Shown here piece by piece: positions 11,160 to 54,603 of a stretch of DNA of 64,000 bases. The notes under the pieces were generated by a model that searched no databases, had not been told where the DNA came from, and was given only the letters and a program-made list of their open reading frames with translations. Made by a program: the position numbers and the translations under genes. This DNA is from Alphaproteobacteria bacterium (GTDB taxonomy: Bacteria; Pseudomonadota; Alphaproteobacteria; CACIAM-22H2): contig JAFKFM010000014.1 of NCBI GenBank assembly GCA_017308135.1, forward strand, positions 65,507-129,506, given 5' to 3'. Numbering within the stretch: the stretch's first letter is position 1; every line of letters begins with the position of its first letter.

Positions 11160-11300
11160 GCCGGTTTCACGACGAAGGCTGCGCTCTGGGCCTTCCATGT
11201 CTTGGCTCGATCAAACTGGAGTTATGAGCCAGTACGATTGCATAAGGATGCCGGCCCGTGGGCCGGCATCTTGCTTTCCGATGACTTCTCAGCCGAAGGC

Positions 11301-33441: not shown

Positions 33442-33494
33442 TCCGTGACAGCTGGCCTCCCGCGACATATCCGCGGGAGGCCGTGCCGGAAAGC

Positions 33495-35326: not shown

Positions 35327-36069
35327 GCGCTCCGATTCTGCAGGCGAGAAATCTGCACGTTGAATTCAGCGGTGTGAAGGCGGCCGACGGCGTCAGCCTC
35401 GACATCAATGAGGGTGAATTTCTCGCGGTGATCGGGCCGAACGGCTCCGGAAAGACAACGCTGCTCAATCTCTGCACCGGGTACGTCCGGCCGAGGTCAG
35501 GCAGTGTTCTTCTCGACGGCCATGCGATTACCGGGCTGACGCCGCGCGCCATCACGCGTCGTGGCGTCGCGCGGGCCTTCCAGATCCCGCAACTGTTCTC
35601 TGACCAGACCGTGCTCGACAACATGATGCTGGCGCTTGCGGCGAAGGACGGTCTGTGGACCATGGTGCGCCCGCTCGGATCGCGAGCCCGGCGCGACGAG
35701 GCGATAGCGCTGCTGGACCTGATCGGATTGCGGGATGATCGCAATCGCGTCAGCCGTACCTTGCCAGAAGGTCACCGCAAACTGCTCGATATCGCGGTGG
35801 CGCTGGCGCTGAAGCCGCGCCTGCTGCTGCTCGATGAGCCGACCAGCGGCGTCAGCACGCTCGAACGGTTTTCGCTGATGGAATCGCTGATGAGCGCGCT
35901 TCGTCAGCGCAGCATCACCGCGCTGTTCGTGGAGCACGATATGGATGTGGTGGCGCGTTATGCCAATCGTGTTCTGGTCTGGAACGCCGGCACCATCATG
36001 GCCCAGGGGCATCCCGACGAAATCTTCAAGGATGAGCGCGTCCTGAAAAATGTCATAGGTGTCGCATGA
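35323..36069 (+). CDS. ABC transporter ATP-binding protein (LivG-like)
   Basis: GPNGSGKTTLL Walker A. Confidence 0.85.
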   Translation: MSAPILQARNLHVEFSGVKAADGVSLDINEGEFLAVIGPNGSGKTTLLNLCTGYVRPRSGSVLLDGHAITGLTPRAITRRGVARAFQIPQLFSDQTVLDNMMLALAAKDGLWTMVRPLGSRARRDEAIALLDLIGLRDDRNRVSRTLPEGHRKLLDIAVALALKPRLLLLDEPTSGVSTLERFSLMESLMSALRQRSITALFVEHDMDVVARYANRVLVWNAGTIMAQGHPDEIFKDERVLKNVIGVA

Positions 36070-36764
36070 CATTGGCGCTCGACAAGGTCGCGGTCTCGAT
36101 CGAAGGCGTTCCGGTCCTGCGCGGCGTCTGCTGCGAGATTCTTGAACGCAAGACGACGATTCTGATCGGACGCAATGGCGCGGGAAAGACCACCACGCTG
36201 CGCGCGATCATGGGGCTTCTGCCGCTCGACGGCGGCGACATCCGCCTCGATGGCGAGGATTTGCGCAAGCAGCCGGCGCATTATCGCGCGCGTGCCGGAA
36301 TTGGCTACGCGCCCGAAGACCGTCGTCTGGTGCCGGAAATGAGCGTCGAGGAAAACATCCGTCTTCCGGGGCTTGCGCTTGATCTCGACAAGGCCGAGAT
36401 CAAGCTACGGCTCGAAGAGATCTATACATTTCTTCCGCAGTTGCATGTGATGCGGTTGCGGCCGGGCGGCGGGGTGTCCGGCGGTCAGGGCAAGATGGTG
36501 GCGCTGGGCCGCGCGCTGATGGTCGCACGCAAGGTGCTGCTGTTGGACGAACCGTTTCAGGGGCTTGCTCCGGCGCTCGCGCTGGACTATGCGCGGACGC
36601 TGGGCGAACTGCGCAAGCACCGCCCGGATCTGGCGCTGTTCATCACCGAATCCACGCCCGCGCTACTCAATGCGATCGCCGATCGCACCTTGCGGATCGA
36701 GCGCGGCGAAATTTCCGAACAATCCACGCATCTAGCGGAGAACGAGAATGCTTCTGCAGTTTGA
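36066..36764 (+). CDS. ABC transporter ATP-binding protein (LivF-like)
   Basis: GRNGAGKTTTL Walker A. Confidence 0.85.
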   Translation: MTLALDKVAVSIEGVPVLRGVCCEILERKTTILIGRNGAGKTTTLRAIMGLLPLDGGDIRLDGEDLRKQPAHYRARAGIGYAPEDRRLVPEMSVEENIRLPGLALDLDKAEIKLRLEEIYTFLPQLHVMRLRPGGGVSGGQGKMVALGRALMVARKVLLLDEPFQGLAPALALDYARTLGELRKHRPDLALFITESTPALLNAIADRTLRIERGEISEQSTHLAENENASAV

Positions 36765-37431
36765 TCGCATCGCCAAGGACCGAACGGACCGGATTGGTAT
36801 CAACATCGAGACTCTGGTGATCGCCGGCTGGGCGGGGCGTGACGTGGCCGCGATCGAGCATCATATTGAGGAATTGGCGGCGATCGGCGTGCCGCGCCCT
36901 TCGACCACGCCGCTCTATTACCGGGTGGCGGCGCAGACGCTGACTCAGGCCGACCAGCTTACCGTTCTCGGCCCGGACAGTTCCGGCGAGATCGAGCCGG
37001 TCGTGGTCGCCATGGCTGATGGTCTGTGGATTGGCATCGGCTCCGACCACACCGACCGCAAGGCGGAAGCCGCTGGTATTGCGCTGTCAAAACAGCTTTG
37101 CGGCAAGCCGGTGGGGCGGCAGCTCTGGTCCTACGCGGATGTCGAAGGACACTGGGACGAACTCACCCTGCGTTCGTGGGCTGTCATCGATGGCGCGCGC
37201 GTCCTATATCAGGAGAGCAAGGTCGCGAGCCTGCGGACGCCGCGCGACCTTATCCGCAAGTATGCCGATGCCGAAACATTGCAGCCCGGCACGCTGATGT
37301 TCTGCGGCACGCCTGGCGCGATTGGTGGTATCCGTCCGGCGTCGCGCTTTGAGATGGAACTGCACGATCCGGTGCTGAAGCGTTCACTGAACTATGCTTA
37401 TGATATCAAGGTGCTTCCGGTCGTATCCTGA
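36748..37431 (+). CDS. Conserved hypothetical protein, DUF2848-like with a possible FAH-like C-terminal motif (GTPGAIGG)
   Basis: 227 aa. GGAG RBS. The start overlaps the LivF-like 3' end by 17 nt. Family assignment is from memory and uncertain. Confidence 0.5.
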   Translation: MLLQFDRIAKDRTDRIGINIETLVIAGWAGRDVAAIEHHIEELAAIGVPRPSTTPLYYRVAAQTLTQADQLTVLGPDSSGEIEPVVVAMADGLWIGIGSDHTDRKAEAAGIALSKQLCGKPVGRQLWSYADVEGHWDELTLRSWAVIDGARVLYQESKVASLRTPRDLIRKYADAETLQPGTLMFCGTPGAIGGIRPASRFEMELHDPVLKRSLNYAYDIKVLPVVS

Positions 37432-37481
37432 GCGCTGGCCGGATACATCTTCCTCACCAACTCCCGCATGAGACCTTGCCG

Positions 37482-38771
37482 ATGTCTGCTGTTCAACGTC
37501 TGGAAGCCGCGCTTGCGCGCATTGCCTCGCCCGATCTGGAAGGGAAGAAGGCTTTCACCGCTGTCTTTACGGAGAGCGCCCGGCGTGAGGCCGAGGCAGC
37601 CGATCGGCGTGAGACGTCAGGGCAGTCGCTCGGGCCTCTGGACGGTCGCATCGTCTCGGTGAAGGCGCTGTACGACGTGGCGGGCACGGTGACTACGGCG
37701 GGCTCGGCGGTTCTGCGCGGCCTGCCGCCTGCCGCGAAGGATGCTGCCGTCGTACAGCGCTTGCGTGCGGCAGGAGCGGTCATCATCGGCAAGACTCAGA
37801 TGACGGAATATGCGTTCTCGGCACTCGGCACCAATCCGCATGACGGCACGCCGGGCAATCCGCGCGATCGTCAGTGGGTGCCGGGCGGTTCGTCGTCAGG
37901 CGCGGTGGTCTCGGTGGTGGATGGTATGGCCGAGATCGCCATCGGCAGCGATACCGGTGGCTCGATCCGCATTCCGGCGGCATTGTCCGGCGCTGTCGGC
38001 TTCAAGCCGACGCGTGGCCGCGTACCGCTGGACGGTTCATTCTCGCTGTCCTCGAGCCTCGATACTCTTGGTCCCATTGCATCGAGCGTGCGTGACTGCG
38101 CGCTCACCGATCAGGTGTTGTCGGAAGAAGGCAGCGGTGCGCTGAGTGCAGCGCCTGCAGAGTCCTTTAAGTTGACAGTGGCGCACGGACGGTTGTTCGA
38201 TCGCTGCGAGCCGGAAATCCTGGCCGCATTCGAAGATGCCTTGGCGCGGCTGCGCAAGGCGGGCCTCCGGATCGCGGACGGTTCGATGGACAAGGCGCTC
38301 GATGACGTTGCCGCCATCGACAAGATCGGGACTTTTCCTTCGATCGAACTGGGCGCGACTCTCGTCGGCCTCGGCGTCACCAGCCTCGATGGCATCGATC
38401 CCAAGACGCGCGTGCGCATCGAGGCAGGTGCCAATATCAAGGCGGTCGATTACGTTCGCATGGTTCGGCTTCGCGATGCGGCGGTTCGTGCTTTTGAAGC
38501 GTCGTTCGAATCTGACGAAGCCTTCATCGTGCCGACCACGCCCATCCGTGCGCCGCTCTTGTCGGCGGTCGAAAGCGATGCAGGATTCCATGAGGCCAAC
38601 GGACTGGTGCTGCGCAATCCGCGCGTTGCCAATATGCTCGACTGCCCGTCGGTATCGTTGCCTTTGCCCATCAACGGGCTTCCCGCTGGACTCATGCTGA
38701 TCGGCCGCAGGAACGCGGACCGCAAGCTGCTTGAGATAGCTGCTGCCATCGAGGCTATCCTGCAGCGTTGA
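37482..38771 (+). CDS. Amidase (amidase-signature family)
   Basis: GGSSSGAVVSVVDGMAEIAIGSDTGGSIRIPAA signature. Catalytic Lys context SVKALYDV. Confidence 0.8.
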   Translation: MSAVQRLEAALARIASPDLEGKKAFTAVFTESARREAEAADRRETSGQSLGPLDGRIVSVKALYDVAGTVTTAGSAVLRGLPPAAKDAAVVQRLRAAGAVIIGKTQMTEYAFSALGTNPHDGTPGNPRDRQWVPGGSSSGAVVSVVDGMAEIAIGSDTGGSIRIPAALSGAVGFKPTRGRVPLDGSFSLSSSLDTLGPIASSVRDCALTDQVLSEEGSGALSAAPAESFKLTVAHGRLFDRCEPEILAAFEDALARLRKAGLRIADGSMDKALDDVAAIDKIGTFPSIELGATLVGLGVTSLDGIDPKTRVRIEAGANIKAVDYVRMVRLRDAAVRAFEASFESDEAFIVPTTPIRAPLLSAVESDAGFHEANGLVLRNPRVANMLDCPSVSLPLPINGLPAGLMLIGRRNADRKLLEIAAAIEAILQR

Positions 38772-38803: not shown

Positions 38804-40549
38804 TCAGTGGATTTCGGGTTCCGGCGTCGCGGCGCCCGCCTGCAGGAAATCAAGATCGCAGCCGATATCGGCTTGCCCGATATGCTGTGAAAACATCGCG
38901 CCATATCCGCGTGTGAAACGCGGCGGAGGTGCGATCCATGTGGCCCTGCGTATTTCTATCTCCGCATCATCGATATCCAGATGGATGCGCCTTTCCGGAA
39001 CATCGAGCTCGATCATGTCGCCGGTCCTGACGAGCGCCAGCGGGCCGCCCACGTAGCTTTCAGGCGCGACATGGAGCACGCACGCGCCATAGCTCGTGCC
39101 GCTCATTCGCGCATCCGAAATTCGAACCATGTCCCGCACGCCCTGTTTGACCAGCTTGGTCGGAATCGGCAGCATGCCCCATTCTGGCATGCCCGGGCCG
39201 CCCTTTGGTCCTGAATTGCGCAAGACCAGAACGTGATCGGGCGTCACGTCGAGATCGTCGCGATTAATTTGCGATGCCATATGGTTGTAATCGTTAAAAA
39301 CGAGAGCAGGCCCGCGATGCTTGAGAAGCCGCGCTTCCGCGGCTGAAGGTTTCATTACGCAGCCTCCCGCCGCGAGATTGCCGCGCAGAACCGCGAGACC
39401 GTTGGCAGAGGATATAGGCTGATCGACCGTGCGAATGACGTCGTCATTCCAGACATTGGCTTCGTCCAGCACCTCCGCGAGGGTGTGGCCGAGCACGTTC
39501 TTCTGTGACAGGTCGAGATGGTTTGAAATTCTCTTCATCAGGCCCGGTAACCCGCCCGCGTAATAAAAATCCTCCATCAGGTATTTTCCGGACGGGCGGA
39601 TATTAGCGATAACGGGGACGCGCGCCGACAGTTCGTCAAAACGTTCGAGCGCGAGGTTGATGCCGGCGCGTCGGGCGATTGCGATCAGATGAATGATGGC
39701 GTTGGTCGATCCTGCGATCGCGGCGCTGGTGATGATCGCATTGTCGAATGAGCCCGCGGTCAGGATGTCGGCTGGTTGCAAATCTTCCCAAACCATCTCG
39801 ACGATCCGTCGTCCGCAAGCTGCTGCCATGCGGGGATGACTGGCGTCGGGTGCGGGAATTGAGGACGAGCCCGGAAGGGCCAGACCCAGAACTTCCGCCA
39901 TTGCTGTCATAGTGGCGGCTGTTCCCATTGTCATGCAGACGCCGTTGGAGCGATTGATGCCGCTTTCCATTTCGTTCCACTGAGCGTCGCTGACGTTTCC
40001 GGCGCGCCGTTCGTCCCAGTACTTCCACAGATCGCTTCCCGAACCGAGGACCTGTCCATGCCAGTTACCCCGCAGCATGGGGCCGGCGGGCATATAGATC
40101 GCAGGCAGTCCGGCGCTGATGGCTCCCATCAGCAGCGCTGGCGTTGTCTTATCGCAACCGCCCATCAGAACCGCGCCATCGACCGGCTGCGCATGGAGAT
40201 TTTCTTCCACTTCCATCGCGAGCAGGTTGCGATACAGCATAGTCGATGGCTTCACGAAATTCTCCGGCAGAGCCATCACCGGGATTTCGATCGGAAATCC
40301 TCCGGCCTGCAGCACGCCGCGTTTCACGTCCTCCACGCGATCCGGAAAATGTGCATGGCAGTGTGCAAATCCGCTCCACGTGTTGACGATCGCGATAATC
40401 GGCTTTCCCTCGAAGTCCTCTTGCGCGTAGCCCATCTGCTTCATGCGCGAACGATGGCCGAACGAGCGCATGTCATCCGGACCGAACCATCGGTGGCTCC
40501 GTAAATCCTGTGCTGTTTCAGGGCGCCGACGCTTCAAATCATTCGACAT
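38804..40549 (-). CDS. IlvD/EDD-family dehydratase (dihydroxy-acid or sugar-acid dehydratase)
   Basis: CDKTTPALLMGA motif. 581 aa. Confidence 0.85.
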   Translation of the reverse strand: MSNDLKRRRPETAQDLRSHRWFGPDDMRSFGHRSRMKQMGYAQEDFEGKPIIAIVNTWSGFAHCHAHFPDRVEDVKRGVLQAGGFPIEIPVMALPENFVKPSTMLYRNLLAMEVEENLHAQPVDGAVLMGGCDKTTPALLMGAISAGLPAIYMPAGPMLRGNWHGQVLGSGSDLWKYWDERRAGNVSDAQWNEMESGINRSNGVCMTMGTAATMTAMAEVLGLALPGSSSIPAPDASHPRMAAACGRRIVEMVWEDLQPADILTAGSFDNAIITSAAIAGSTNAIIHLIAIARRAGINLALERFDELSARVPVIANIRPSGKYLMEDFYYAGGLPGLMKRISNHLDLSQKNVLGHTLAEVLDEANVWNDDVIRTVDQPISSANGLAVLRGNLAAGGCVMKPSAAEARLLKHRGPALVFNDYNHMASQINRDDLDVTPDHVLVLRNSGPKGGPGMPEWGMLPIPTKLVKQGVRDMVRISDARMSGTSYGACVLHVAPESYVGGPLALVRTGDMIELDVPERRIHLDIDDAEIEIRRATWIAPPPRFTRGYGAMFSQHIGQADIGCDLDFLQAGAATPEPEIH

Positions 40550-40657: not shown

Positions 40658-43600
40658 CTACCGATGATGTCGCGTTGACAGAGAACGCCAGGCGGTTCGT
40701 AACCACCTTCGCCAGCCGCCCGTTTTCCAGATATCGCTCGCGAGTGCAGCAAGACTATCCTCGACCGCAACGGAAATGTGGAAAGGAAACATATGCTTTT
40801 CGCTGAACCAGCGGACCCCTTCCTCCACCAGATCAAGCTCCAGGAGATACTCGCCGGGTTTATGAGGTGCGATGGTGTCGATCAACATTCGGCTGCGTGC
40901 ACCGGCTTTGATCGTTTGCGTCAGGGGTGTTCTTCCATCGGACCAGATGATCACTTCACCATTGCGCGACAGCCAATGGTTGCCGAGCGCGATGCCGCTT
41001 TCATCAAAAGGCTTCCAGTCCAGCGGGCTGCGGTTCTGTATCGCAACGTCGATTCGAAGCTGCTGACCGGGTCGTAAAGTCAATTTGGAATAGGGGCCCG
41101 TTATCGTGCCTGCGTAGATCGACTCAGGATAGCTGCCGGCCGTCTTGTGGCCGGTATCGCAAGGCAGTTGTTGCGCAGACCACGCAATGGCTTCTTCCAG
41201 ACTCTCCGCCAATCGCTCGGATGCCTTACCGCGCATGATGGACGCGTAGCCGGCGGATATGACAGAGGTTTTATGGCCAGCGGGAAAAAGCTTCTTCAGG
41301 CCGGCATTTGGAAATCTGAACCTTCTGTATGGATTGAACTTGCTTCCATTGGGAAGAAAGAGCGCAACAGGTTCTTCAAAGGGACGATCTGCGAATAAGT
41401 CGACGATGGGCGTATCTGCAATTGCAAGGAGTTGCACTTTGCGCCCCTCCGCCAGAAGTGCGCGTGCCACTTCGAGCGCAATCATGGCGCCCTGGCAATT
41501 GCCTCCGATCACATAAGGCCCTTTCGGGTGAACCTTCTTGATCTCGTCGACATAGCGAGTGACGAATGCCTTCGCTGCCGGTGCATTGTAGTCGAGAAAT
41601 AAATATCCAGACCTCATCATATAGGCCGGTCGGCGCGAACCGACGATCCGGCCGAACTGCAAGGCCTCCTCTTTGGTTTGCAAACACCAGAAGAGGGGAA
41701 TTCCGGCTTGTGCCGTTCCCACGCGACGCAGGAAGCCTCCCTCCGAAGCGGGCCGCCCCGGCCATTGGGCCAGAAACTCGCTCATTCTCTCGCCGACCCA
41801 TTCCGGAAGGGACGGTGCATTTTCCGGTGAGAGCTTGTTGTCCTGATATCCCGGAGATTCTTTTGTCCGGGCGGAAACGAGGTTTACGAAGTCCGATAGT
41901 CTGGAATGTTCAGAAAAATCTTCCGGGGAAAGATAGAGGCCGAAACGCTCCTCAATCGCGAAACACATCTGAAGCGCGAGCACGGAGTCTCCACCCAGCG
42001 CGAAGAAGTCGGCGTGTGAATCACTGAGCGGACCGCACTTCAAAAGCCTGGACCAGATCTCGGCGACAATCTGTTCGATACCGATCAATTTCGTATCCGG
42101 CACCTCGTTGTTAGATGGTCCAGCGAGAACGTGAAGTTGTTCGCTGAAGCGTGGATCGCCAACCATCGCAGCAAGCGAAAAGCGCTGTACCTTTCCAAGG
42201 GGTGTTCGTGGCACGTCCTCGCTTCTGATCAATCCGACGACTGCAGGAACAAAATGATAGGCCGAGGTCACGATGGAGCGAATCTCGGCGGCTGCATCTG
42301 CCAGTTCGTAAGCTTCGTCGTTTTCGGCCACAGCGAAGATGGCTACCGGTTTCCCTGAGGCCGGGCTGCGCCGGATCAGACTTTCCCGAAACGGCGCGAC
42401 ATAAACCTGGCGAAATCGGCTTTCGGAGGCGATAGTTTTCTCGATCTCCAGACATGAGAATTTCTTGGCATTGATGACGATCTGATCCTTCTCGCGGCCG
42501 ACAACTGTGAGAAGACCATTGCGGAGGAAGCCTAGATCGCCGGTCCGCAGCCAGTCATCGTCCGTCAGCAGGTCGGCGGTGCCTTCTTCGTCTCCCAGAT
42601 AGCCGCACGTCATGGTCGGACCCTGCACCTCGACAAGGCCGATGGCTTCTTCCGCCAAGATGGTCCCATTGTCGTCGACGATCCGTACGGCATGACCTGC
42701 GGTCGGTCGATCAAGGACGACCGGTCCTTCCTCCGTTAGATCTGGCGAAAAGACGGCGCCGCCTCCGGCCACGGGGCCACATTCCGTGAGGCCGTAACCG
42801 AGAATGATCGAGTCGGCAGGCAGGCCGAATGGTGTCAGGAGGTTAAGAAAGCTGCGGCACAGGGGCCGGGAAATTTGCTCCGCACCGATGCCGATTTTCC
42901 GGACGCGACTAATATCCCATTTCCGTCCCGGTTGGCTCTTGAGAGCATCGATGATCAGTGACATGCCGAAATTCGTCATGGTCGCGTGCGTGGTGCCCGT
43001 CTGTTCGACAACATCGAGCCAAGAGAGCGGATTTGCCGCGAACCATTCAGCATCGAGATGGATCTTGCGCGCGGTGTTGGGCGCTGCAAGGCCAAGGCCC
43101 ATGATATGGTCGAAGGGTGACCACGACAGGAAGGTTACCGCGTCCCGCGCGTCAGGCACCTTCGCCCACCAGCGTGCCAGGACGGCATCTGCGGTCAACC
43201 CCACGAGCTTTGGCTGTGCTGTCGTTCCGGACGTCAGCACCGCAAGCTGCGCACCGCCTTGATTTTCAGAGATCATAGCGATCTCGGCAGGCTGCCTTTC
43301 GTTGTTTAATTCGTCGAATTGGAGAATCTTCAATCCCGATGCGGCCGCATCCGGTGTGTCCGTCAGGTCTGGATCATCGGTGAGGATATATCCATCGCTT
43401 AGGACCGAGTTCAAAAAGGAGAATATCTCTCTGCGTCGTGTTGCTCCGAACTGCTTGCTTGCGTTTTGGACGAGAGGCACAGCCAAGAGATTGGAGAGAA
43501 GCGCAGCCCAAAGCGCGGGAATGAAATTTTCGCTGTTCCGAAGATTGATGACGAGGTCGTCGCCTGCCTTCAGGCCGCGTCGCTGAAGGGCGAGGGCGAG

Positions 43601-43774
43601 CCGCTTCGCGTTTTGCAGCGTGTCCCGATAGGATATGGTCGAGAGAGTGCCATGTCTTATTGCGTGGACGAACTGGCCTTCGGGAAATCGATCGACCGCG
43701 TCGAGGAGGGCGTGAGTCAGTGTGGAATAGGGGACTCGGTTTGCAGGCTCGCCGCGAGAAATGGCGGGTGTCAT
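40658..43774 (-). CDS. NRPS-like single-module protein: adenylation (acyl/aminoacyl-AMP ligase) domain, phosphopantetheine carrier, thioesterase-like alpha/beta-hydrolase domain with G-x-C-x-G elbow, and an uncharacterised C-terminal ~180-aa domain
   Basis: Adenylation motifs LTSGTTAQPK, GYGLTECG, RTGDLGF, GREKDQIVINAKKFSCLEIE, PLGKVQR. Carrier motif FFALGGDSVLAL. GGNCQGAMIALEVA elbow. ATG at 43774 overlaps the upstream stop (ATGA). The ORF is open to 43915. Confidence 0.8.
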   Translation of the reverse strand: MTPAISRGEPANRVPYSTLTHALLDAVDRFPEGQFVHAIRHGTLSTISYRDTLQNAKRLALALQRRGLKAGDDLVINLRNSENFIPALWAALLSNLLAVPLVQNASKQFGATRRREIFSFLNSVLSDGYILTDDPDLTDTPDAAASGLKILQFDELNNERQPAEIAMISENQGGAQLAVLTSGTTAQPKLVGLTADAVLARWWAKVPDARDAVTFLSWSPFDHIMGLGLAAPNTARKIHLDAEWFAANPLSWLDVVEQTGTTHATMTNFGMSLIIDALKSQPGRKWDISRVRKIGIGAEQISRPLCRSFLNLLTPFGLPADSIILGYGLTECGPVAGGGAVFSPDLTEEGPVVLDRPTAGHAVRIVDDNGTILAEEAIGLVEVQGPTMTCGYLGDEEGTADLLTDDDWLRTGDLGFLRNGLLTVVGREKDQIVINAKKFSCLEIEKTIASESRFRQVYVAPFRESLIRRSPASGKPVAIFAVAENDEAYELADAAAEIRSIVTSAYHFVPAVVGLIRSEDVPRTPLGKVQRFSLAAMVGDPRFSEQLHVLAGPSNNEVPDTKLIGIEQIVAEIWSRLLKCGPLSDSHADFFALGGDSVLALQMCFAIEERFGLYLSPEDFSEHSRLSDFVNLVSARTKESPGYQDNKLSPENAPSLPEWVGERMSEFLAQWPGRPASEGGFLRRVGTAQAGIPLFWCLQTKEEALQFGRIVGSRRPAYMMRSGYLFLDYNAPAAKAFVTRYVDEIKKVHPKGPYVIGGNCQGAMIALEVARALLAEGRKVQLLAIADTPIVDLFADRPFEEPVALFLPNGSKFNPYRRFRFPNAGLKKLFPAGHKTSVISAGYASIMRGKASERLAESLEEAIAWSAQQLPCDTGHKTAGSYPESIYAGTITGPYSKLTLRPGQQLRIDVAIQNRSPLDWKPFDESGIALGNHWLSRNGEVIIWSDGRTPLTQTIKAGARSRMLIDTIAPHKPGEYLLELDLVEEGVRWFSEKHMFPFHISVAVEDSLAALASDIWKTGGWRRWLRTAWRSLSTRHHR

Positions 43775-44355
43775 GGCCGCTGACCAGCCAGATCGGTCAA
43801 TGAGACGGCGTAGTATCTGCCGATTTTTGCGATCTCCGATGTGGCATTCGATCTTCCGCGGGCTGACTTGTGCCAGTCCGACGCCGAATAATATTGGCTG
43901 GGGTAAGTCGTCCATCCAAGCTCAATTGACGCAGGCAGATGTCGCCTTGCCGCCAGGATCGCCCTGCGCAGATGATAATGGATGGTCACAAGAATAGCGG
44001 ATCTGAGATCGCGGAACTCCGGATGCGTCTCCAGGATTTCCTTGGAGAAGAGCATGTTCTCTTCCGTGTGAGCGGCCCGAGATTCCACGAGAACCGCCCG
44101 ATCCGGCAGACCCGCCTTCCGTGCGAAGTCGGACATGGCAACCGCCTCGCATTCTCCCAAGTTGCTATTGAAACCGCCGGTGAAAAGAAGAAATCTGGCT
44201 TTGCCGGACCGGTATAGCTCAATCGCACGCTCTGCCGGGCGCTGCCAGTCATTCATGCCGAAGACAATCGCGACTTCCGCCTCGATCAGATTGTCTTCGA
44301 GAAACAAGCAGCTTCCGATCAGATCGGTATCCATCGGCACGTTCGGAATGCCCAT
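43771..44355 (-). CDS. DUF218 (YdcF/ElyC/SanA-like) domain protein
   Basis: AIVFGMNDW...ARFLLFTGG...GECEAVAMSDFARKAGLPDRAVLVESRAAHTEEN pattern typical of DUF218. Start ATG lies 1 nt after the upstream stop. Confidence 0.6.
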   Translation of the reverse strand: MGIPNVPMDTDLIGSCLFLEDNLIEAEVAIVFGMNDWQRPAERAIELYRSGKARFLLFTGGFNSNLGECEAVAMSDFARKAGLPDRAVLVESRAAHTEENMLFSKEILETHPEFRDLRSAILVTIHYHLRRAILAARRHLPASIELGWTTYPSQYYSASDWHKSARGRSNATSEIAKIGRYYAVSLTDLAGQRP

Positions 44356-44356
44356 T

Positions 44357-45451
44357 TCAGATCGAGATCGTCTTGCGAAGGTTGCGCACGCGCGCAACGG
44401 ATGCTTTCAGATCGTCCATTGTGATGTCTCCGTCTGCCAAACTCTCGGCGATCCATGCAGCGAAAGATGCAGGCAGATCCTGATCGTAGTTCCTACGATT
44501 TCTGATGATGAAAAGGTCATTGCCTGCTTTCAATGCCTTGCGAGCGATGCTGGGGCGCTCAAAGCCGTAACCGGCAAGCCCCATGTCGAGATCGTCGGTT
44601 AGTGCCACGCCTTCAAAACCGAGCGTACCTCGCAGTATATCCGTCACGACGGTGCGGGAGAGAACGGCAGGCTGACCCTCATAGATCAAATGTCCGCTCA
44701 TCACCATCACAGCGCTCCTATCGCGAATGAGTTCCCTGAACGGCGAGAGATCTCGATCAGATCGCGATGATGAAACGTCGTCCCGAAGCGCCAGATGGGG
44801 GTCGTACCTGGCGCCTCCCTGTCCGGGAAAATGCTTGAGGGAACATAATATTCCAGCCGCGGCAAAGCCTGCCATGAGCGTTCTTGCATAGGTGGTCACA
44901 ATTTGGGGATCGGTGCTGAAGGCTCTTCCAAAATGACCAACCGCCGGGTTTTGCGGATCATCCAGGTCGACAACCGGCGCCAAATTCAAGTTGAAGCCAA
45001 GTCGCGCCAGGGCATGACCGGCCTCTTCGTAGAGGTTTCGCGCCTGGTCGATGGAGTAGTCCTGAGCCATGGTCTTGGCGGACGGCAAGGGGGTGCAGCC
45101 ATGCGCCGCGACCAGCCTTTGTACGGCTCCGCCCTCATGATCGATCGCCAGGATCGGCTTCTGCGGGGCATTGTCGGAAAAAAGCGCCGTCAGACCAAGT
45201 ACGTCACTTTTGCTGCCGATGTTGTCTTTGACAAAGATGACCCCTCCAGCGCGGCCGTCGCGTATCTGCCTCGCGAGCAGTTGGGCCGATCTGGAGCTGG
45301 CGTCGCGGCCGTCAAACCCGCAGATCAAAATCTGACCCGTGCTGTTCTGCACGTCGGAGTTGGCAGATATCGAAGGACGGCGAAATGCCCCGGTCGCGCC
45401 GATCACAGCGGCAGCTCCGGCCATGCCCGTTAGAAATAAACGGCGGCGCAT
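44357..45451 (-). CDS. Glycoside hydrolase family 3 N-terminal domain protein (NagZ-like beta-hexosaminidase) with twin-arginine signal peptide
   Basis: MRRRLFLTGMAGAAAVIGATGAF signal. KHFPGQGG motif. AAGGAA RBS. Confidence 0.75.
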   Translation of the reverse strand: MRRRLFLTGMAGAAAVIGATGAFRRPSISANSDVQNSTGQILICGFDGRDASSRSAQLLARQIRDGRAGGVIFVKDNIGSKSDVLGLTALFSDNAPQKPILAIDHEGGAVQRLVAAHGCTPLPSAKTMAQDYSIDQARNLYEEAGHALARLGFNLNLAPVVDLDDPQNPAVGHFGRAFSTDPQIVTTYARTLMAGFAAAGILCSLKHFPGQGGARYDPHLALRDDVSSSRSDRDLSPFRELIRDRSAVMVMSGHLIYEGQPAVLSRTVVTDILRGTLGFEGVALTDDLDMGLAGYGFERPSIARKALKAGNDLFIIRNRRNYDQDLPASFAAWIAESLADGDITMDDLKASVARVRNLRKTISI

Positions 45452-45753
45452 TGTCGTTCCTTTGGGCAGCCGACTGGCAAACGGATGCCTTTCAGCCCGC
45501 TTGGCCGGAGAGGCACGCGTGACCCTACGTGCACCATGCACCTATTAAGCCAGCCCCGATAAGCTGCACTTTTTTCAGAAAAAAGGGGGTTAGTCACCAT
45601 CATGTGGGACGAAGAGAACAACTAAATCAATAGAACTCCGGGCAAGTGCAGGCCCGGGCCTTATTTCTGAATGGCGTCCGACTGCCTGTGCAGAACATAA
45701 GTGGACTTGGGTCGCCCCGGCATTTGCCGGGCCCTGGTCTGCAAAAGCTCCGA

Positions 45754-46706: not shown

Positions 46707-46814
46707 GGGTCTAATTTTTAGAATTCTGACTTCGAATTTCAATGCTTTTATTCGATCTCCTAATTTGTCATGCTTCGCGGCAAGTCACGCTTTTGTTCTC
46801 GATGGAGAAACCAG

Positions 46815-48026
46815 ATGACTCGCTTCCGGCTTATGTTGCCTCGCCTGAGTTCACTTCTTCTCGTATCCAGCGTCGGACTATTCGCGCCTGCGGCGATGGC
46901 GCAGGACGTCATCAAGTTTGGCGCGCCCCTTCCTCTGACGGGGCCGCTCGCGCCGGAGGCGGTGAAGCAGCAGCAGGGATATGACCTGTGGGCCGAACAG
47001 GCGAACAAGGCAGGCGGCATTTCCGTCGGCGGCAAGAAGTACAAGGTCGAGATCGTCTACGCGGACTATCAGTCGAACACGCCGCGCGCGGTGCAAACCA
47101 GCGAGCAGATGATCACGCAGAACAACGTCAATTTCCTGTTCGGCGCGTTCGGGTCCGGCGCAGCCAAGGCGGCCAGCAGCGTGTCCGAGAAATACAAGGT
47201 GCCGACCATCGCAGCGACCGCTTCGTCGGCGCAGGTCTACGATCAGGGTTACAAATATCTGTTCGGCACCTTCACGCCTAACGATACGCTGACCACGCCG
47301 TTGACGCAGATCGTCAAGGCCAAGGCTCCGGATGTGAAGAAGGTCGCCATTCTGGCGCGCAACGATCTCTTCCCGCTGGCGATTGCTCAGGAAATGGAGA
47401 AATCGGCAAAGGCGAACGGGTTCGAGGTAGTTTATTTCGAAAAATACGCCATCAATACCCTCGATCATTCGGCCACGCTGTCGCAGATCAAGTCCCTTGC
47501 GCCGCAGTGGATCTTCGTGACCGGCTACATCAACGACCTGTTGCTGGTTCGCAAGCAGATGACGGATCAGCAAATCAAGGCCAGCGTCGTGTCCATGATC
47601 GCCGGGCCTGCCTATCAGGAATTCATCGACGCGGCGGGTGCGAGCGGCGACAACATCACCAGCGCAGCCTGGTGGCATCCGGCGGCGCAATATTCGGGCA
47701 AGGACATTTTCGGCACGACCGCGAACTATGTCAAACTTTTCAAGGAGAAGTACAAGTCCGAGCCTGACTATGCGCAGGCTTCCGCATCCGTGTCCGGTGC
47801 TTTGTTCCAGATGGCCATCGAGCGTGCGGGTACGCTGGATCGTGACAAGGTACGTGACGAACTCGCCAAGATGGACGTGATGACCTTCTGGGGACCGGTG
47901 AAGTTTGGTTCCAACGGTCAGATCAACTCGCTCGAGCCGCCGGTCTTTCAGTTGCAGGGTGGCAAACCCGTCGTCCTCTCACCGGCGATCATCAAGCAGG
48001 GTGACTTCAAGCTGGGCGTGAACTGA
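46815..48026 (+). CDS. ABC transporter substrate-binding protein (LivK-like) with signal peptide
   Basis: MTRFRLMLPRLSSLLLVSSVGLFAPAAMA signal peptide. Confidence 0.85.
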   Translation: MTRFRLMLPRLSSLLLVSSVGLFAPAAMAQDVIKFGAPLPLTGPLAPEAVKQQQGYDLWAEQANKAGGISVGGKKYKVEIVYADYQSNTPRAVQTSEQMITQNNVNFLFGAFGSGAAKAASSVSEKYKVPTIAATASSAQVYDQGYKYLFGTFTPNDTLTTPLTQIVKAKAPDVKKVAILARNDLFPLAIAQEMEKSAKANGFEVVYFEKYAINTLDHSATLSQIKSLAPQWIFVTGYINDLLLVRKQMTDQQIKASVVSMIAGPAYQEFIDAAGASGDNITSAAWWHPAAQYSGKDIFGTTANYVKLFKEKYKSEPDYAQASASVSGALFQMAIERAGTLDRDKVRDELAKMDVMTFWGPVKFGSNGQINSLEPPVFQLQGGKPVVLSPAIIKQGDFKLGVN

Positions 48027-48059
48027 CCGCAATAGCCTCAAGGAAAGCGGAAGTCCGAC

Positions 48060-48926
48060 ATGCTGGCGGCCCAGGTTCTGATCAATGCTCTGGTTCTGGG
48101 CTGCCTTTACGCCTGTATCGCGATCGGCTTCTCGCTGGTCTGGGGCGTATTGAACGTTATCAATCTGATCCACGGCTCATTCATCGTGCTGGGCGCCTAC
48201 CTTGCATGGTGGCTCTATAACCTGCTGCATATTTCCCCGTGGTATGCGCTTTTCATCGCTGCGCCCGCGTTTTTCGCTCTCGGTTATGTCCTGCAGCGTT
48301 TAATCCTCAATCGTGTGATCACTGCGCCTGTTCTTGTCACGCTGACTCTTACGTTCGGTCTCGACCTGATCCTCAACAACGCGATGATCTACTACTTCAA
48401 GGCCGACTATCGGAAATTGATCCTGACGCCTCCGATGGGATCGGTTTCCATCTTCGGGGTTGTCGTGCCGGTCGATCGTCTGGTTGCCACTGTCGCGGCG
48501 CTGGCATTGACGGGTGTGCTGTATTTGATCCTGCGACGATCGCGGGTAGGGCGTGCCATCGTTGCTGTCCGACTCGATCGCGACGCGGCCAAGCTGATGG
48601 GCGTCGATGTCAATTCGATCTATGCGTTCGCATTCGGTCTCGGCGCAGCACTGGCTGGCTGCGCCGGTGTTTTGATGGCGCTGATCTTCCCTATCTCTCC
48701 GCTCACCTCGACGGCCTATCTCGGAAAGGCCTTCGTGGTTTGTGTCCTCGGTGGCCTGGGCAGTGTGTCCGGCGCGTTGGCAGGGGGGATATTCCTGGCG
48801 CTGATCGAAGGTATCGGTTCGACGCTGATCGGGCCCGCGCATGCCACGACTCTTTCATTCGCGATCCTGATCGTGTTCCTGATCGTGCGCCCTCAAGGCT
48901 TGCTTGGTCGGAAGGGCTTTGAATGA
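48060..48926 (+). CDS. ABC transporter permease (LivH-like)
   Basis: NLIHGSFIVLGAY motif. Confidence 0.8.
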   Translation: MLAAQVLINALVLGCLYACIAIGFSLVWGVLNVINLIHGSFIVLGAYLAWWLYNLLHISPWYALFIAAPAFFALGYVLQRLILNRVITAPVLVTLTLTFGLDLILNNAMIYYFKADYRKLILTPPMGSVSIFGVVVPVDRLVATVAALALTGVLYLILRRSRVGRAIVAVRLDRDAAKLMGVDVNSIYAFAFGLGAALAGCAGVLMALIFPISPLTSTAYLGKAFVVCVLGGLGSVSGALAGGIFLALIEGIGSTLIGPAHATTLSFAILIVFLIVRPQGLLGRKGFE

Positions 48927-49858
48927 CACGCTCAAACCTCCTTCTGCTGGCACTGATACTTTGCATCGCCTTGCTGCCGCTCTTCGGCGGCTCCTATGCG
49001 CTACGGCTGGGCACCATCGCCTGCATGTACGGCATCCTGGCGCTGTCGTGGAACGTTGTCGGCGGTTTCGCGGGATATCCCTCATTTGCAACGGCAGCAT
49101 TCTTCGGATTTGGCGCTTACAGCGCAGGCGTGCTGATGGGGAAGGGAGCCGCGCTGTCGGTGTCCGTCGTGGTTGCGGGCGTCATGTCCTTTGCGGTGGC
49201 AGCCCTTCTCGGCGCCGCGCTCCTTCGCCTGCGCGGACATTATTTCGCAATCGCCAGCCTGTCGTTGATTGAGGTGTTTCGGGAATTGGTGAACAACGCC
49301 ACCGATCTGACGGGCGGTGGAATGGGATTGAACATTCCTGTGACGTCGTCCGCCGGCATCATGGCGGACGCGATGCTGTTTTTCTACGTGATGTGGGCGC
49401 TGCTGCTCGGCACAGCCATCATGGTTGTGATCGTAGCGGGATCGAAGCTCGGATTCGGTCTCGCCGCCATTCGCCAGAATGAGACCGCAGCCAATATGAT
49501 CGGGCTCAACGCCACTCTCTACAAAAGCATCGCGTTCGGACTATCCGCATGTTTCGTTGGGGCCGCCGGCGGCGTCTATGCGGCATGGGTTCACTATATC
49601 GATCCGTCCGACGTGTTCGACATTCTCTACTCGGTGAAACCGATCGTCATGGCTCTGATCGGAGGGCTCGGGGCGCCGCTCGGCGTCATGATCGGCGCCT
49701 TTGTCTACCTCGGCCTCGAGGAAGTGGTCTGGCGCAATTACATCCAGATCCACAGTGGAGTGCTGGGAGTTCTCATCGTCATCCTGCTCCTGTTCTTCCC
49801 GCATGGATTGATGTCGATCCGCGACCGTCTCCTGTCGTGGAGGCCGAAGCGTGTCTGA
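48923..49858 (+). CDS. ABC transporter permease (LivM-like)
   Basis: ATGA overlap. Polytopic membrane protein. Confidence 0.8.
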   Translation: MTRSNLLLLALILCIALLPLFGGSYALRLGTIACMYGILALSWNVVGGFAGYPSFATAAFFGFGAYSAGVLMGKGAALSVSVVVAGVMSFAVAALLGAALLRLRGHYFAIASLSLIEVFRELVNNATDLTGGGMGLNIPVTSSAGIMADAMLFFYVMWALLLGTAIMVVIVAGSKLGFGLAAIRQNETAANMIGLNATLYKSIAFGLSACFVGAAGGVYAAWVHYIDPSDVFDILYSVKPIVMALIGGLGAPLGVMIGAFVYLGLEEVVWRNYIQIHSGVLGVLIVILLLFFPHGLMSIRDRLLSWRPKRV

Positions 49859-50597
49859 AATTCTCCAGCTTCAGTCGGTTTCCCGGAACTTCTCCGGCCT
49901 GAAGGCCCTGCGGGACGTGTCGCTGCGCGTCAGCAAGGGCGAAGTTCTGGGTCTGATCGGGCCTAACGGCGCGGGAAAAACGACATTGGTGAACACCGTG
50001 ACCGGCGTCACGCCAGCGAGTTCCGGCAAGGTCTTGTTCATGGGACAGGACATCACACGGGTCAAAACCTATCAATCGGCTCGGCTCGGTCTCGCTCGCA
50101 CTTTTCAGATCGTGCAGCCGTTTGCGGAATTCAGTGCGCTGGACAACGTTGCCGCGGCAGCGCTGTTTTCGCAGCCCGGCGAGAATATCAGATCGGCCCG
50201 TGAGGAAGCGCGAGCCCATCTGGCATTTGTCGGTCTGGATGCGCAGGCCGATCAACCTGCTGCGACTTTGACGCTGGCGATGCGCAAGCGGCTCGAACTT
50301 GCCAAGGCTCTAGCCATGAAGCCGAAGCTGCTGTTCCTTGACGAGGTCAATGCGGGGCTCAACAGCGCCGAAGTCGAACGCGCAGCAAAGCTGATTCACC
50401 AGCTTTCCGAGAGCGGCATCACCATCGTGATGATCGAGCATCTGATGAAGGTGGTGCTGAACGTCTGTACGCGTATCGTCGTGCTGCACAATGGCCAGTT
50501 GATCGCCGATGGCGCACCACGGGACGTGATCAAGGATTCCGCGGTCGTCGAAGCCTATCTCGGTCAGCAATATGCACAGAGGGCGGGTCATGGCTGA
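49851..50597 (+). CDS. ABC transporter ATP-binding protein (LivG-like)
   Basis: GPNGAGKTTLV Walker A. Confidence 0.85.
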   Translation: MSEILQLQSVSRNFSGLKALRDVSLRVSKGEVLGLIGPNGAGKTTLVNTVTGVTPASSGKVLFMGQDITRVKTYQSARLGLARTFQIVQPFAEFSALDNVAAAALFSQPGENIRSAREEARAHLAFVGLDAQADQPAATLTLAMRKRLELAKALAMKPKLLFLDEVNAGLNSAEVERAAKLIHQLSESGITIVMIEHLMKVVLNVCTRIVVLHNGQLIADGAPRDVIKDSAVVEAYLGQQYAQRAGHG

Positions 50598-53458: not shown

Positions 53459-53515
53459 GTTCTGGTTAACCGATGGAAGAGTGGATATTGTGAACGGATC
53501 CGACTGTGCTTGTGC

Positions 53516-54481: not shown

Positions 54482-54603
54482 CGGATCGCTCTCCCGTTTA
54501 ATTGGTTCATTGATTGCGATGATTTTGAAGGCGTCTTTGCCAGCGTTCAATACGACTTTGTTTATACAAAAAAGTCATATAATCTCCTTCCTTGGAGATT
54601 TTG

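What the first reader, a model, noticed from the sequence alone, without database searches (positions are those of the whole stretch)
40658..45451. Translationally coupled operon: Tat-exported GH3 hydrolase, DUF218 protein, and NRPS-like A-T-TE protein with extra C-terminal domain
Three minus-strand genes are packed with a 1-nt gap and a 4-nt ATGA overlap. They are a NagZ-like GH3 with a twin-arginine signal peptide, a YdcF/ElyC/SanA-like DUF218 protein (a family linked to envelope biogenesis), and a 1038-aa stand-alone adenylation, carrier and thioesterase-like protein with an uncharacterised ~180-aa beta-rich tail. This is not a canonical NRPS cluster: it has no condensation domain and no tailoring enzymes. 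It resembles an acyl- or aminoacyl-transfer system acting on an envelope glycan, analogous in logic to Dlt-type D-alanylation, but with different parts.
Basis: partly seen in the sequence, partly recalled or inferred. Interest (0 to 1): 0.75.

Follow-up and report, generated by a model that had tools for sequence, protein, structure and literature searches.

The report
Conserved DUF218, acyl-carrier enzyme and NagZ-like module
Three tightly packed genes form a rare, conserved and uncharacterised bacterial module: an exported sugar-cleaving enzyme, a small protein of unknown chemistry, and a large enzyme that activates an acid on its own carrier arm. Its recurring neighbours tie it to cell-wall amino sugars, and it could be a way to work out what DUF218 proteins do.

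Summary
Three minus-strand genes lie at 40658-45451: a Tat-signal GH3, a DUF218 protein and a 1038-aa adenylation-carrier-thioesterase-like protein. They are joined by a 1-nt gap and an ATGA overlap.

- The adenylation domain is of the McyG / keto-acid / fatty-acyl type. It has Ile/Val where amino-acid domains have Asp235, so it loads a non-amino carboxylic acid. This is not Dlt-like aminoacylation.
- The "thioesterase" has an invariant Cys nucleophile (GGNCQG) and almost no lid. Tyr replaces the triad His in the window protein (26 Tyr, 15 His among 41 homologues).
- The "extra tail" is an NBR1-type four-tryptophan beta-sandwich.
- An exhaustive search found about 975 cluster representatives. 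They include this Cys-TE plus FW pair in many NRPS termini, and also proteins made only of FW repeats. The pair has not been characterised.

DUF218 sits directly upstream of the big gene in every homologous locus with sequence there. A Tat-GH3 is present in 15 of 20 informative loci, in varying order and in distant taxa. A sister clade has murQ and a nagK-like kinase beside the pair instead. No NRPS cluster lies in the 64-kb window.

Best reading: a self-contained cytoplasmic acyl-loading and transfer enzyme pair, functionally tied to GlcNAc/MurNAc turnover. Substrate and product are unknown.

The parts
44357..45451 (-). Tat-exported single-domain GH3, NagZ-type beta-N-acetylglucosaminidase-like (364 aa)
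   Evidence: Pfam Glyco_hydro_3, 175 bits. NCBIfam beta-N-acetylhexosaminidase, 169.7 bits, below the 207 cut-off. The best PDB sequence matches are all GH3 beta-N-acetylglucosaminidases (6k5j, 3tev, LpqI 6gfv, YbbD; E down to 3e-36). The sequence contains KHFPGQGGARYDPH and TDDLDM.
45356..45451 (-). Twin-arginine signal peptide of the GH3 (MRRRLFLTGMAGAAAVIGATGAFRRPSISA)
   Evidence: Read directly from the sequence. An RR-containing N-terminus is kept in the GH3 homologues of L001, L002, L010, L014, L017, L020, L023, L025 and L027.
43771..44355 (-). Cytoplasmic YdcF-type DUF218 protein (194 aa), obligate partner of the big gene
   Evidence: Pfam DUF218, 81 bits. AF2 model pLDDT 94.6. The only real PDB fold match is E. 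coli YdcF, 3ca8, TMq 0.67. It forms a discrete subfamily of about 66 clusters scoring 181-294 bits, followed by a sharp drop; all are single-domain. Invariant residues: G33, P40, G60, G61, N63, E70, T97, N100, H128, R131, Y151, W161, G167. It lies immediately upstream of BIG in every locus with sequence there.
42155..43693 (-). Acyl-adenylating (ANL) domain of the big protein, residues ~28-540; McyG / keto-acid / FAAL-like, not amino-acid type
   Evidence: Pfam AMP-binding. The top NCBIfam hits are FAAL/FadD models, all far below their cut-offs. PDB: McyG A-PCP 4r0m, 3e-61; 6ulw/6ulx; FAAL 3pbk. The A4 motif PFDHIMG has I/V at the Asp235 position in 41 of 41 sequences. K528 (A10) is invariant.
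41876..42070 (-). Carrier (phosphopantetheine) domain, residues 569-633; attachment Ser597 in GGDS
   Evidence: Pfam PP-binding, 49.5 bits. Ser597 is invariant in 41 of 41 sequences.
41165..41812 (-). Thioesterase-fold alpha/beta domain, residues ~655-870, with Cys760 nucleophile (GGNCQG), Asp787 and Tyr843 at the triad positions, and almost no lid
   Evidence: Pfam Thioesterase, partial. AF2 model pLDDT 93.5, pTM 0.89. Foldseek matches NocB TE 6ojc, Pks13 TE and FAS TE. C760 and Q761 are invariant in 41/41; D787 is D in 37 and E in 4; position 843 is Y in 26 and H in 15. Only one short helix (model 136-140) lies between strands 126-132 and 149-156, where TE lids normally sit.
40751..41122 (-). 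NBR1-type four-tryptophan (FW) beta-sandwich, residues ~885-1008
   Evidence: Foldseek matches human NBR1 FW 4ole (E 2.5e-7, TMt 0.57), and also the WzmWzt transporter chain 8dl0 and a PapD-like domain. Pfam N_BRCA1_IG is weak: E 0.054 here and 9.5e-5 in homologue P0049. Conserved W920, W934, W944, W989, N914, N932, H933, D946, E979, D981, E984, E985.
40661..40750 (-). Basic Trp/Arg-rich C-terminal tail (SLAALASDIWKTGGWRRWLRTAWRSLSTRHHR), not conserved in sequence
   Evidence: Translation. No consensus in this region of alignment A1. A membrane-association role is only a guess.
45638..45657 (-). GC-rich hairpin between the LysR gene stop (45754) and the GH3 start; possible end of the upstream transcript
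   Evidence: Terminator-like scan hit with a poor T tail; the number of hits is no higher than in shuffles. Weak evidence only.

Best explanation
This is a self-contained, conserved module with a two-gene core plus an accessory gene.

Core: a soluble YdcF-type DUF218 protein, translationally coupled to a single-module thiotemplate enzyme (BIG).

Proposed mechanism, with shown and inferred steps marked:
1. BIG adenylates a carboxylic acid that has no alpha-amino group. The type of acid is shown from motifs and relatives. Its identity is unknown.
2. BIG loads the acid as a thioester on its own phosphopantetheine arm at Ser597. This is inferred from intact core motifs.
3. The acyl group passes to Cys760 of a lid-less thioesterase-fold domain that is packed against an FW beta-sandwich. 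This is inferred.
4. The acyl group is then transferred to an acceptor or released. This is inferred. The Cys nucleophile and the frequent loss of the triad His argue for transfer or unusual release chemistry rather than plain hydrolysis.
5. DUF218 works stoichiometrically with the adenylation-carrier part. The association is shown. Its chemistry is unknown.

Accessory gene: a Tat-exported NagZ-type GH3 that acts in the periplasm on a terminal beta-GlcNAc glycoside.

The GH3 association, and its replacement by murQ plus a nagK-like kinase in a sister clade, suggest that the acid or the acceptor comes from GlcNAc/MurNAc (cell-wall amino-sugar) turnover.
For: Architecture and intact catalytic motifs.

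Non-amino-acid A domain.

Cys-TE and FW: a high-confidence model (pLDDT 93.5, pTM 0.89) and fold matches.

DUF218 pairing:
- DUF218 is directly upstream of BIG in every locus with sequence there, usually with the same 4-nt overlap, down to 33% identity and across Alpha- and Betaproteobacteria.
- The DUF218 subfamily is discrete and about the same size as the BIG family.

GH3 linkage:
- A GH3 is present in 15 of 20 informative distinct loci, in three different arrangements: upstream on the same strand, upstream divergent, and downstream.
- This includes the Nitrotoga TPR variant.
- All but the truncated (L021) and weakly matching (L022) copies carry RR signals.

Sister clade: murQ (258 bits against a 168 cut-off) and a NagK-like kinase lie next to the pair in L003, L004 and L008.

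Self-contained module: the flanks are not conserved even at 75% identity in L010, and no NRPS/PKS is present in the window.

Partner assignment: the Nitrotoga variant keeps DUF218 and GH3 but has an ordinary Ser/His TE plus TPR. The partners therefore follow the A-carrier part.
Against: - No substrate, product or acceptor is identified.
- The amino-sugar link rests only on gene neighbourhood.
- Five informative loci lack a nearby GH3.
- The GH3 is periplasmic while BIG and DUF218 are cytoplasmic, and no conserved transporter connects them.
- The murQ/nagK pair could be a housekeeping neighbour inherited by one clade.
- A Devosia member of the DUF218 subfamily pairs with an unrelated 322-aa protein.
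- The Cys-TE plus FW pair also ends classical NRPS lines, with sulfotransferase and TPR domains. That fits secondary metabolism as well as it fits envelope chemistry.
- Tyr843 may mean the domain is catalytically impaired in the window protein.
Confidence: 0.45

Rival explanations
1. A minimal secondary-metabolite synthase. BIG, helped by DUF218, turns an aryl, keto or hydroxy acid into a small diffusible product through Cys-TE chemistry. Possible routes are dimerisation, as in A-T-TE quinone/furanone synthetases, or strained-ring release, as in ObiF and SulM. The periplasmic GH3 would mature, recycle or detoxify a glycosylated form.
For: - The A domain is closest to McyG and to a keto-acid A domain.
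- Cys-nucleophile TEs are known from obafluorin and sulfazecin release (PMC6668435, PMC11298585).
- The same Cys-TE plus FW pair ends large NRPS and PKS-NRPS proteins with sulfotransferase and TPR domains.
- The next relatives in Streptomyces are A-T-TE proteins with methyltransferase and reductase neighbours.
- The module sits in varying genomic contexts. One copy is beside a phage-type integrase and one beside IS elements.
Against: - No tailoring enzyme, glycosyltransferase, exporter or resistance gene is conserved with the pair.
- The recurring partners are amino-sugar catabolic or recycling enzymes, not biosynthetic ones.
- In this subfamily the triad His is often replaced by Tyr.
Confidence: 0.25
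2. One reading: a Dlt-like system that acylates or aminoacylates an envelope glycan outside the cytoplasm.
For: - It has adenylation-plus-carrier logic.
- DUF218 relatives ElyC and SanA affect peptidoglycan and ECA synthesis (PMC12176290).
- The GH3 is exported.
- Glycosyltransferase genes lie near some copies.
Against: - The A domain lacks the amino-acid signature.
- No MBOAT/DltB-like or other membrane transferase is conserved nearby.
- The carrier is fused in a 1038-aa cytoplasmic protein.
- DUF218 here has no membrane anchor and resembles cytosolic YdcF.
Confidence: 0.1
3. A fatty-acid activating enzyme (FAAL-ACP-TE) for lipid remodelling or lipid-linked product synthesis, with the GH3 only a frequent neighbour.
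For: The best NCBIfam hits are fatty acyl-AMP ligase and FadD models. FAAL 3pbk is among the PDB matches. FAAL-ACP starters occur in the wider TE-FW family.
Against: - All FAAL models score far below their cut-offs (176 against 600 bits).
- The A4 motif is DHI/VMG, not the FAAL HDMG motif.
- The stretch where FAALs carry their specific insertion is about 28 residues here against about 51 in 3pbk.
- The GH3 linkage survives rearrangement and long evolutionary distance.
Confidence: 0.12
4. The thioesterase-like domain is inactive in the window protein (Tyr843). BIG would then only hold an acyl thioester for DUF218, which would be the true off-loading or modifying enzyme.
For: - Position 843 is Tyr in 26 of 41 sequences and His in 15.
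- DUF218 has an invariant Glu, Thr and His. This matches the residue types reported as essential in SanA (PMC12176290).
- DUF218 follows the A-carrier part even when the TE type changes.
Against: Cys760, Gln761, Arg721, Ser722 and the FW-domain residues are invariant or nearly so. That argues for a functional site. The equivalence of the DUF218 triad to that of SanA was not aligned here.
Confidence: 0.08

Closest known systems
McyG-type loading didomain and stand-alone NRPS-like A-T-TE enzymes
   Same: An ANL adenylation domain for a non-amino carboxylic acid, fused to a carrier domain. The best PDB match is McyG A-PCP 4r0m, E 3e-61. The single-module A-T-TE layout has no condensation domain.
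   Different: Only roughly 30% identical, estimated by eye from the alignment. The release domain has a Cys nucleophile, no lid and a fused FW beta-sandwich. It has an obligatory DUF218 partner and a linked periplasmic GH3. None of this is described for those enzymes, as far as I know.
Cys-nucleophile NRPS thioesterases (ObiF, SulM)
   Same: A thioesterase fold with Cys in the GxCxG elbow. PMC6668435 and PMC11298585 describe catalytic-Cys TEs that release strained rings.
   Different: No detectable close sequence relation: neither is among the PDB sequence hits. Those TEs keep a His and a lid and have no FW domain.
Pks13 thioesterase (acyl transfer to trehalose)
   Same: A structural match among the top Foldseek hits. 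It is a precedent, from my own knowledge, for a TE domain that transfers its acyl group to a sugar rather than to water.
   Different: Pks13 TE has a Ser-Asp-His triad and a large lid. Identity is 12-13%. No sugar acceptor has been shown here.
Dlt (DltA/DltC/DltB/DltD) and AlmEFG carrier-dependent envelope modification
   Same: An adenylating enzyme plus a carrier feeding a transfer reaction, with a link to envelope chemistry by context.
   Different: Dlt activates the amino acid D-alanine and uses a free small carrier and a membrane MBOAT. Here the acid is a non-amino acid, the carrier is fused, and no membrane transferase is present.
DUF218 proteins YdcF, ElyC, SanA of E. coli
   Same: Pfam DUF218. 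The fold matches YdcF 3ca8. Glu, Thr and His are invariant, as reported for the family. ElyC and SanA affect peptidoglycan and ECA synthesis, which fits the amino-sugar context here.
   Different: Only 20% identical to YdcF over the structural alignment. No PDB hit by sequence. No membrane anchor. It forms a separate subfamily defined by coupling to an A-carrier protein.
NagZ, and exported GH3 N-acetylglucosaminidases (YbbD/NagZ of Bacillus, LpqI of mycobacteria)
   Same: A single GH3 N-terminal domain with the KHFPGxG...DxH and TDDLxM motifs. The best PDB matches are N-acetylglucosaminidases. It is exported, like YbbD and LpqI.
   Different: Scores below the NCBIfam NagZ cut-off (169.7 against 207). 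Export is by a Tat signal in a Gram-negative-type genome. Substrate was not tested.

Membership tests
NRPS amino-acid adenylation domain (Dlt/NRPS type) | Asp235-equivalent in motif A4 (FDxS) that binds the alpha-amino group | tested here: not met
   The motif reads PFDHIMG. The aligned position is Ile or Val in 41 of 41 family members. TIGR01733 scores 93.6 bits against a 317.4 cut-off.
ANL adenylate-forming superfamily | Core motifs A3 (TSGTTxxPK), A7 (TGD), A8 (GRxKD) and the A10 Lys | tested here: met
   LTSGTTAQPK, T411-G412-D413, G426-R427-x-K429 and K528 are all invariant or nearly so. Pfam AMP-binding, 117 bits.
Fatty acyl-AMP ligase (FAAL) | FAAL-specific insertion, the HDMG motif, and a score above the curated model cut-offs | tested here: not met
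   About 28 residues lie where 3pbk has about 51. The motif is DHIMG, not HDMG. NF006624 scores 176 bits against a 600 cut-off.
Carrier protein (PP-binding) | Conserved Ser in GxDS for phosphopantetheine attachment | tested here: met
   GGDS with Ser597 in 41 of 41. Pfam 49.5 bits against a 20.8 cut-off. Actual modification cannot be tested here.
Type I thioesterase domain (PF00975) | Alpha/beta-hydrolase fold | tested here: met
   Pfam 42.9 bits against a 26.4 cut-off, partial match. Foldseek matches NocB, Pks13 and FAS TEs, prob 1.00.
Type I thioesterase domain (PF00975) | Ser-Asp-His catalytic triad and a helical lid | tested here: not met
   Cys760 replaces Ser in 41 of 41. The His position is Tyr in the window protein, with 26 Y and 15 H in the family. 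The lid is reduced to one short helix.
NBR1 FW (four-tryptophan) domain / Pfam N_BRCA1_IG | Beta-sandwich fold with four conserved Trp | tested here: met
   Foldseek 4ole, E 2.5e-7, TMt 0.57. W920, W934, W944 and W989 are conserved. The Pfam sequence score is below threshold here (E 0.054).
DUF218 / YdcF-like | Pfam DUF218 match and YdcF fold | tested here: met
   81 bits against a 27.6 cut-off. 3ca8 TMq 0.67, rmsd 3.8.
ElyC / SanA (membrane-anchored periplasmic DUF218) | N-terminal membrane anchor with a periplasmic DUF218; equivalog score | tested here: not met
   No hydrophobic N-terminus. NCBIfam ElyC scores 18 bits against a 205 cut-off.
GH3 NagZ-type beta-N-acetylglucosaminidase | GH3 N-terminal domain with the KH(F/I)PGxG...D-x-H motif and the Asp nucleophile in (S/T)DDLxM | tested here: met
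   KHFPGQGGARYDPH and TDDLDM are present. PDB matches are N-acetylglucosaminidases. Motif definitions are from my own knowledge. The NCBIfam equivalog cut-off is not reached.
Dlt-type D-alanylation system | MBOAT (DltB) membrane transferase and DltD in the operon | tested here: not met
   Pfam of all neighbouring genes and clustering of flanking ORFs in 19 loci show no such conserved gene.
Tat-exported protein | S/T-R-R-x-F-L-K-like motif followed by a hydrophobic stretch and an AxA-like site | tested here: met
   MRRRLFLTGMAGAAAVIGATGAF...ISA. RR motifs are kept in homologues. Export itself cannot be tested here.

The most novel reading that the evidence does not exclude
The adenylation domain might activate the free lactyl carboxylate of (anhydro)MurNAc, or D-lactate or a muropeptide released from it.

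The proposed route is:
1. The periplasmic NagZ-like GH3 cleaves GlcNAc-(anh)MurNAc and releases the acid.
2. BIG carries the acid as a thioester and passes it on.
3. DUF218 acts on the nucleotide- or phosphate-linked amino-sugar partner.

This would be a thiotemplate branch of peptidoglycan recycling. It would also give the first assignable biochemical reaction for a DUF218 protein.
Probability: 0.08. Interest if true: 0.85.

Novelty: new variant of a known kind. Interest (0 to 1): 0.6.

Why it matters
1. DUF218 proteins (ElyC, SanA, YdcF) influence peptidoglycan and ECA synthesis, but their chemistry is unknown. A soluble DUF218 that is always translationally coupled to an adenylation-carrier enzyme can be tested directly in vitro.
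2. The Cys-nucleophile, lid-less TE fused to an NBR1-type FW sandwich is a widespread off-loading unit. An exhaustive search returned about 975 cluster representatives, some of them FW-repeat-only proteins. I found no description of this unit.
3. The recurrent link to NagZ-like, MurQ and NagK-like genes hints at an unrecognised connection between thiotemplate chemistry and cell-wall amino-sugar turnover.

Tried and rejected
- Organism identification. A genome-contig scan with the single protein gave only one locus, a Caulobacteraceae MAG. A megablast of 14 kb against plasmids hit only the araD gene at about 72%. The exact protein is not on record in the contig index.
- RNA elements and signals. 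Rfam gave no hit over 38-48 kb. Promoter and terminator scans were no better than shuffles.
- DUF218 sequence search against the PDB gave nothing. Only the fold search found YdcF.
- Fusion (Rosetta-stone) clues for DUF218: none. All 85 hits are single-domain.
- A recurrent fourth gene. Clustering of flanking ORFs in 19 loci found nothing beyond BIG, DUF218 and GH3. The large GT2 proteins of L090 and L094 share only generic GT2 similarity.
- The Devosia DUF218 neighbour as a stand-alone TE-FW: rejected, no similarity.
- Apparent "split" ACP-TE-FW proteins. At least one (L094) is a degraded or frameshifted copy flanked by transposases. Another (L095) is a genuine stand-alone unit in an NRPS cluster.
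- Literature. No paper combines DUF218 with adenylation.
Pocket residues and the TE-FW interface could therefore not be analysed.

Full report
OBSERVATION

The three minus-strand genes are present as described.
- The GH3 gene runs from ATG 45451 to TGA 44357.
- One base later, the DUF218 gene starts at ATG 44355 and ends at TGA 43771.
- That stop overlaps the ATG (43774) of a 1038-aa gene, here called BIG, which ends at 40658.
- Homologues support these starts. There are 194-aa DUF218 proteins that cover the whole query. The ATGA overlap recurs in six other loci.
- The DUF218 start is the least certain. A second ATG lies seven codons downstream.

Pfam finds these domains:
- AMP-binding, PP-binding and a partial Thioesterase match in BIG;
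- DUF218 in the middle gene;
- Glyco_hydro_3 in the first gene.

No condensation domain is found.

THE BIG PROTEIN, DOMAIN BY DOMAIN

Adenylation domain.
- It has intact core motifs, including the A10 lysine.
- It is not an amino-acid type. Curated amino-acid and FAAL models all score far below their cut-offs.
- Its best solved relatives are the McyG loading didomain (E 3e-61), a keto-acid-selecting A domain (6ulw/6ulx) and a FAAL.
- The residue-level alignment puts its PFDHIMG motif against PLDHVGA, PLDHIGG and PFYHDMG. The position of the amino-binding Asp235 of NRPS domains is Ile or Val in all 41 family members.
- The FAAL-specific insertion is absent.
- The substrate is therefore a carboxylic acid without an alpha-amino group. 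Which acid it is cannot be read from sequence.

Carrier domain. The carrier serine (GGDS, Ser597) is invariant.

Thioesterase-like domain and C-terminal tail. A model of residues 655-1012, built from a 27-sequence alignment, is confident (pLDDT 93.5, pTM 0.89).
- The first half is a thioesterase-type alpha/beta fold matching NocB, Pks13 and FAS TEs.
- Its nucleophile elbow reads GGNCQG. Cys760 and Gln761 are invariant, and Asp787 is conserved.
- The canonical His position holds Tyr in the window protein, and 26 Tyr against 15 His across 41 sequences.
- The lid is reduced to one short helix.
Four conserved Trp are present, together with a set of invariant Asn, His, Asp and Glu residues.

THE CYS-TE PLUS FW PAIR IS WIDESPREAD

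An exhaustive profile search found about 975 cluster representatives at E <= 1e-30. They include:
- stand-alone 320-400-aa TE-FW proteins;
- many A-carrier-TE-FW proteins of about 1000 aa;
- multi-kilobase NRPS or PKS-NRPS proteins in which TE-FW is followed by sulfotransferase and/or TPR domains.

The same hit list also holds proteins made only of 4-14 FW-like repeats, so 975 overstates the number of true pairs.

The retrieved TE-FW sequences keep the GGNCQ(G/S/A) and YGMRSG motifs. They mostly have His at the triad position. A plasmid NRPS of Methylomagnum ishizawai has the layout C-A-T-TE(Cys)-FW-sulfotransferase-TPR. FW-like domains are also fused to methyltransferases and to an ArnT-like glycosyltransferase. 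Catalytic-Cys thioesterases are known from obafluorin and sulfazecin release (PMC6668435, PMC11298585). Those are not close relatives and have no FW domain.

THE PARTNERS

DUF218.
- The protein has no signal peptide or membrane anchor.
- It models confidently (pLDDT 94.6) and matches only E. coli YdcF among solved structures.
- Its subfamily is discrete. About 66 clusters score 181-294 bits, then scores drop sharply. All members are single-domain.
- Glu70, Thr97, Asn100, His128 and Arg131 are invariant.
- A recent paper reports a Thr-His-Glu triad as essential in SanA. It places ElyC and SanA in the balance between peptidoglycan and ECA synthesis (PMC12176290).

GH3.
- It is NagZ-like by its PDB relatives and motifs, although it scores below the NCBIfam equivalog cut-off.
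- Its twin-arginine leader is kept in the homologues of nine other loci.

CONTEXT IN OTHER GENOMES

The loci came from exact-protein look-ups and a metagenome scan. They were analysed by tblastn and ORF clustering.
- DUF218 lies immediately upstream of BIG in every locus that has sequence there.
- A GH3 homologue lies beside the pair in 15 of 20 informative distinct loci. It occurs in three arrangements: upstream co-directional, upstream divergent, and downstream.
- This includes a Candidatus Nitrotoga locus with the order GT2, DUF218, BIG-TPR, GH3.
- Three loci of a sister clade lack the GH3. They have murQ (258 bits against a 168 cut-off) and a NagK-like kinase next to the pair.
- The flanks are otherwise unrelated, even at 75% identity.
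- The Nitrotoga-type variant has an ordinary GHSFG Ser/His TE plus TPR and no FW domain, yet it keeps DUF218 and GH3. The two partners therefore follow the adenylation-carrier part.

IN THE WINDOW
- BIG is the only credible gene longer than 640 aa in the window.
- The neighbours are Liv-type ABC transporters, LysR regulators, an amidase, DUF2848 and an L-arabinonate dehydratase.
- The refutation condition "a starter module of a nearby cluster" is therefore not met within the window.

MECHANISM

Shown:
- the gene coupling;
- the domain set and intact motifs;
- the non-amino-acid type of A domain;
- the Cys elbow;
- the FW fold;
- the conserved pairing with DUF218;
- the frequent linkage to exported NagZ-like GH3 or to murQ/nagK.

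Inferred:
- BIG loads an acid on Ser597 and passes it to Cys760.
- The lid-less TE together with the FW sandwich forms the acceptor or release site.
- DUF218 acts with the A-carrier part.
- The acid or the acceptor comes from GlcNAc/MurNAc turnover.

I give this 0.45.

The main rival, at 0.25, is a small secondary-metabolite synthase. It is favoured by the presence of the same TE-FW unit at NRPS termini.

NOVELTY

All the parts belong to known superfamilies. The following appear undescribed, and the literature search found nothing that combines DUF218 with adenylation:
- the module as a whole;
- the DUF218 and A-carrier pairing;
- the Cys-TE plus FW off-loading unit.

I classify this as a new variant of a known kind, with an interest score of 0.6.

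Noticed in passing
L093 (Methylomagnum ishizawai plasmid pRS11DPr2, NZ_AP019785.1) 5749-11805: A 2018-aa NRPS with the layout C-A-T-TE(Cys, GGNCQG)-FW-sulfotransferase-TPR. Nearby are an ACP, a TauD dioxygenase, a radical-SAM-like gene, an ABC transporter and glycosyltransferases. It is a cultured-organism example of the uncharacterised Cys-TE plus FW off-loading unit.
   Followed up: partly
proteins P0245, P0246, P0257: Large secreted-looking proteins, one of them with a subtilase-like N-terminus, carry 8-14 tandem copies of the FW-like beta-sandwich (motif DLVxExVTWFS). The bacterial FW domain is therefore also a common repeat module outside thiotemplate enzymes.
   Followed up: no
L091 (Devosia sp. 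MAG) 8001-9543: A member of the same DUF218 subfamily (192 bits) overlaps by 11 nt with a 322-aa ORF that has no Pfam match and no similarity to BIG. This may be an alternative partner for this DUF218 type.
   Followed up: partly
L004/L005 5058-6308 and L094 1747-2544, 9964-12545: Some copies of the module sit next to a phage-type integrase with an AlpA-like gene, or between transposases. The L094 copy is broken into fragments. This suggests horizontal mobility and occasional decay.
   Followed up: no
window 32146-38771: A Liv-type ABC transporter operon (binding protein, two permeases, two ATPases) is followed by a DUF2848 (FAA-hydrolase-like) gene and an amidase. It looks like an amide or amino-acid derivative uptake and catabolism cluster.
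   Followed up: no
window 38804-40549: The gene just downstream of BIG, on the same strand after a 108-nt gap, is an L-arabinonate dehydratase. It scores 1006 bits against an 882 equivalog cut-off. It is not conserved next to the module elsewhere.
   Followed up: yes
window 40661-40750: BIG ends in a Trp/Arg-rich tail (DIWKTGGWRRWLRTAWRSLSTRHHR) that is not conserved in sequence among homologues. It could be an amphipathic membrane-association helix.
   Followed up: no
window 46770-51330 and 55691-56929: Two further Liv-type periplasmic binding protein and ABC transporter sets, each with a LysR regulator nearby, plus a TctC receptor and an isocitrate/isopropylmalate-dehydrogenase-like gene (52382-54550). 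The window resembles a catabolic chromid or megaplasmid region of an uncultured alphaproteobacterium.
   Followed up: no
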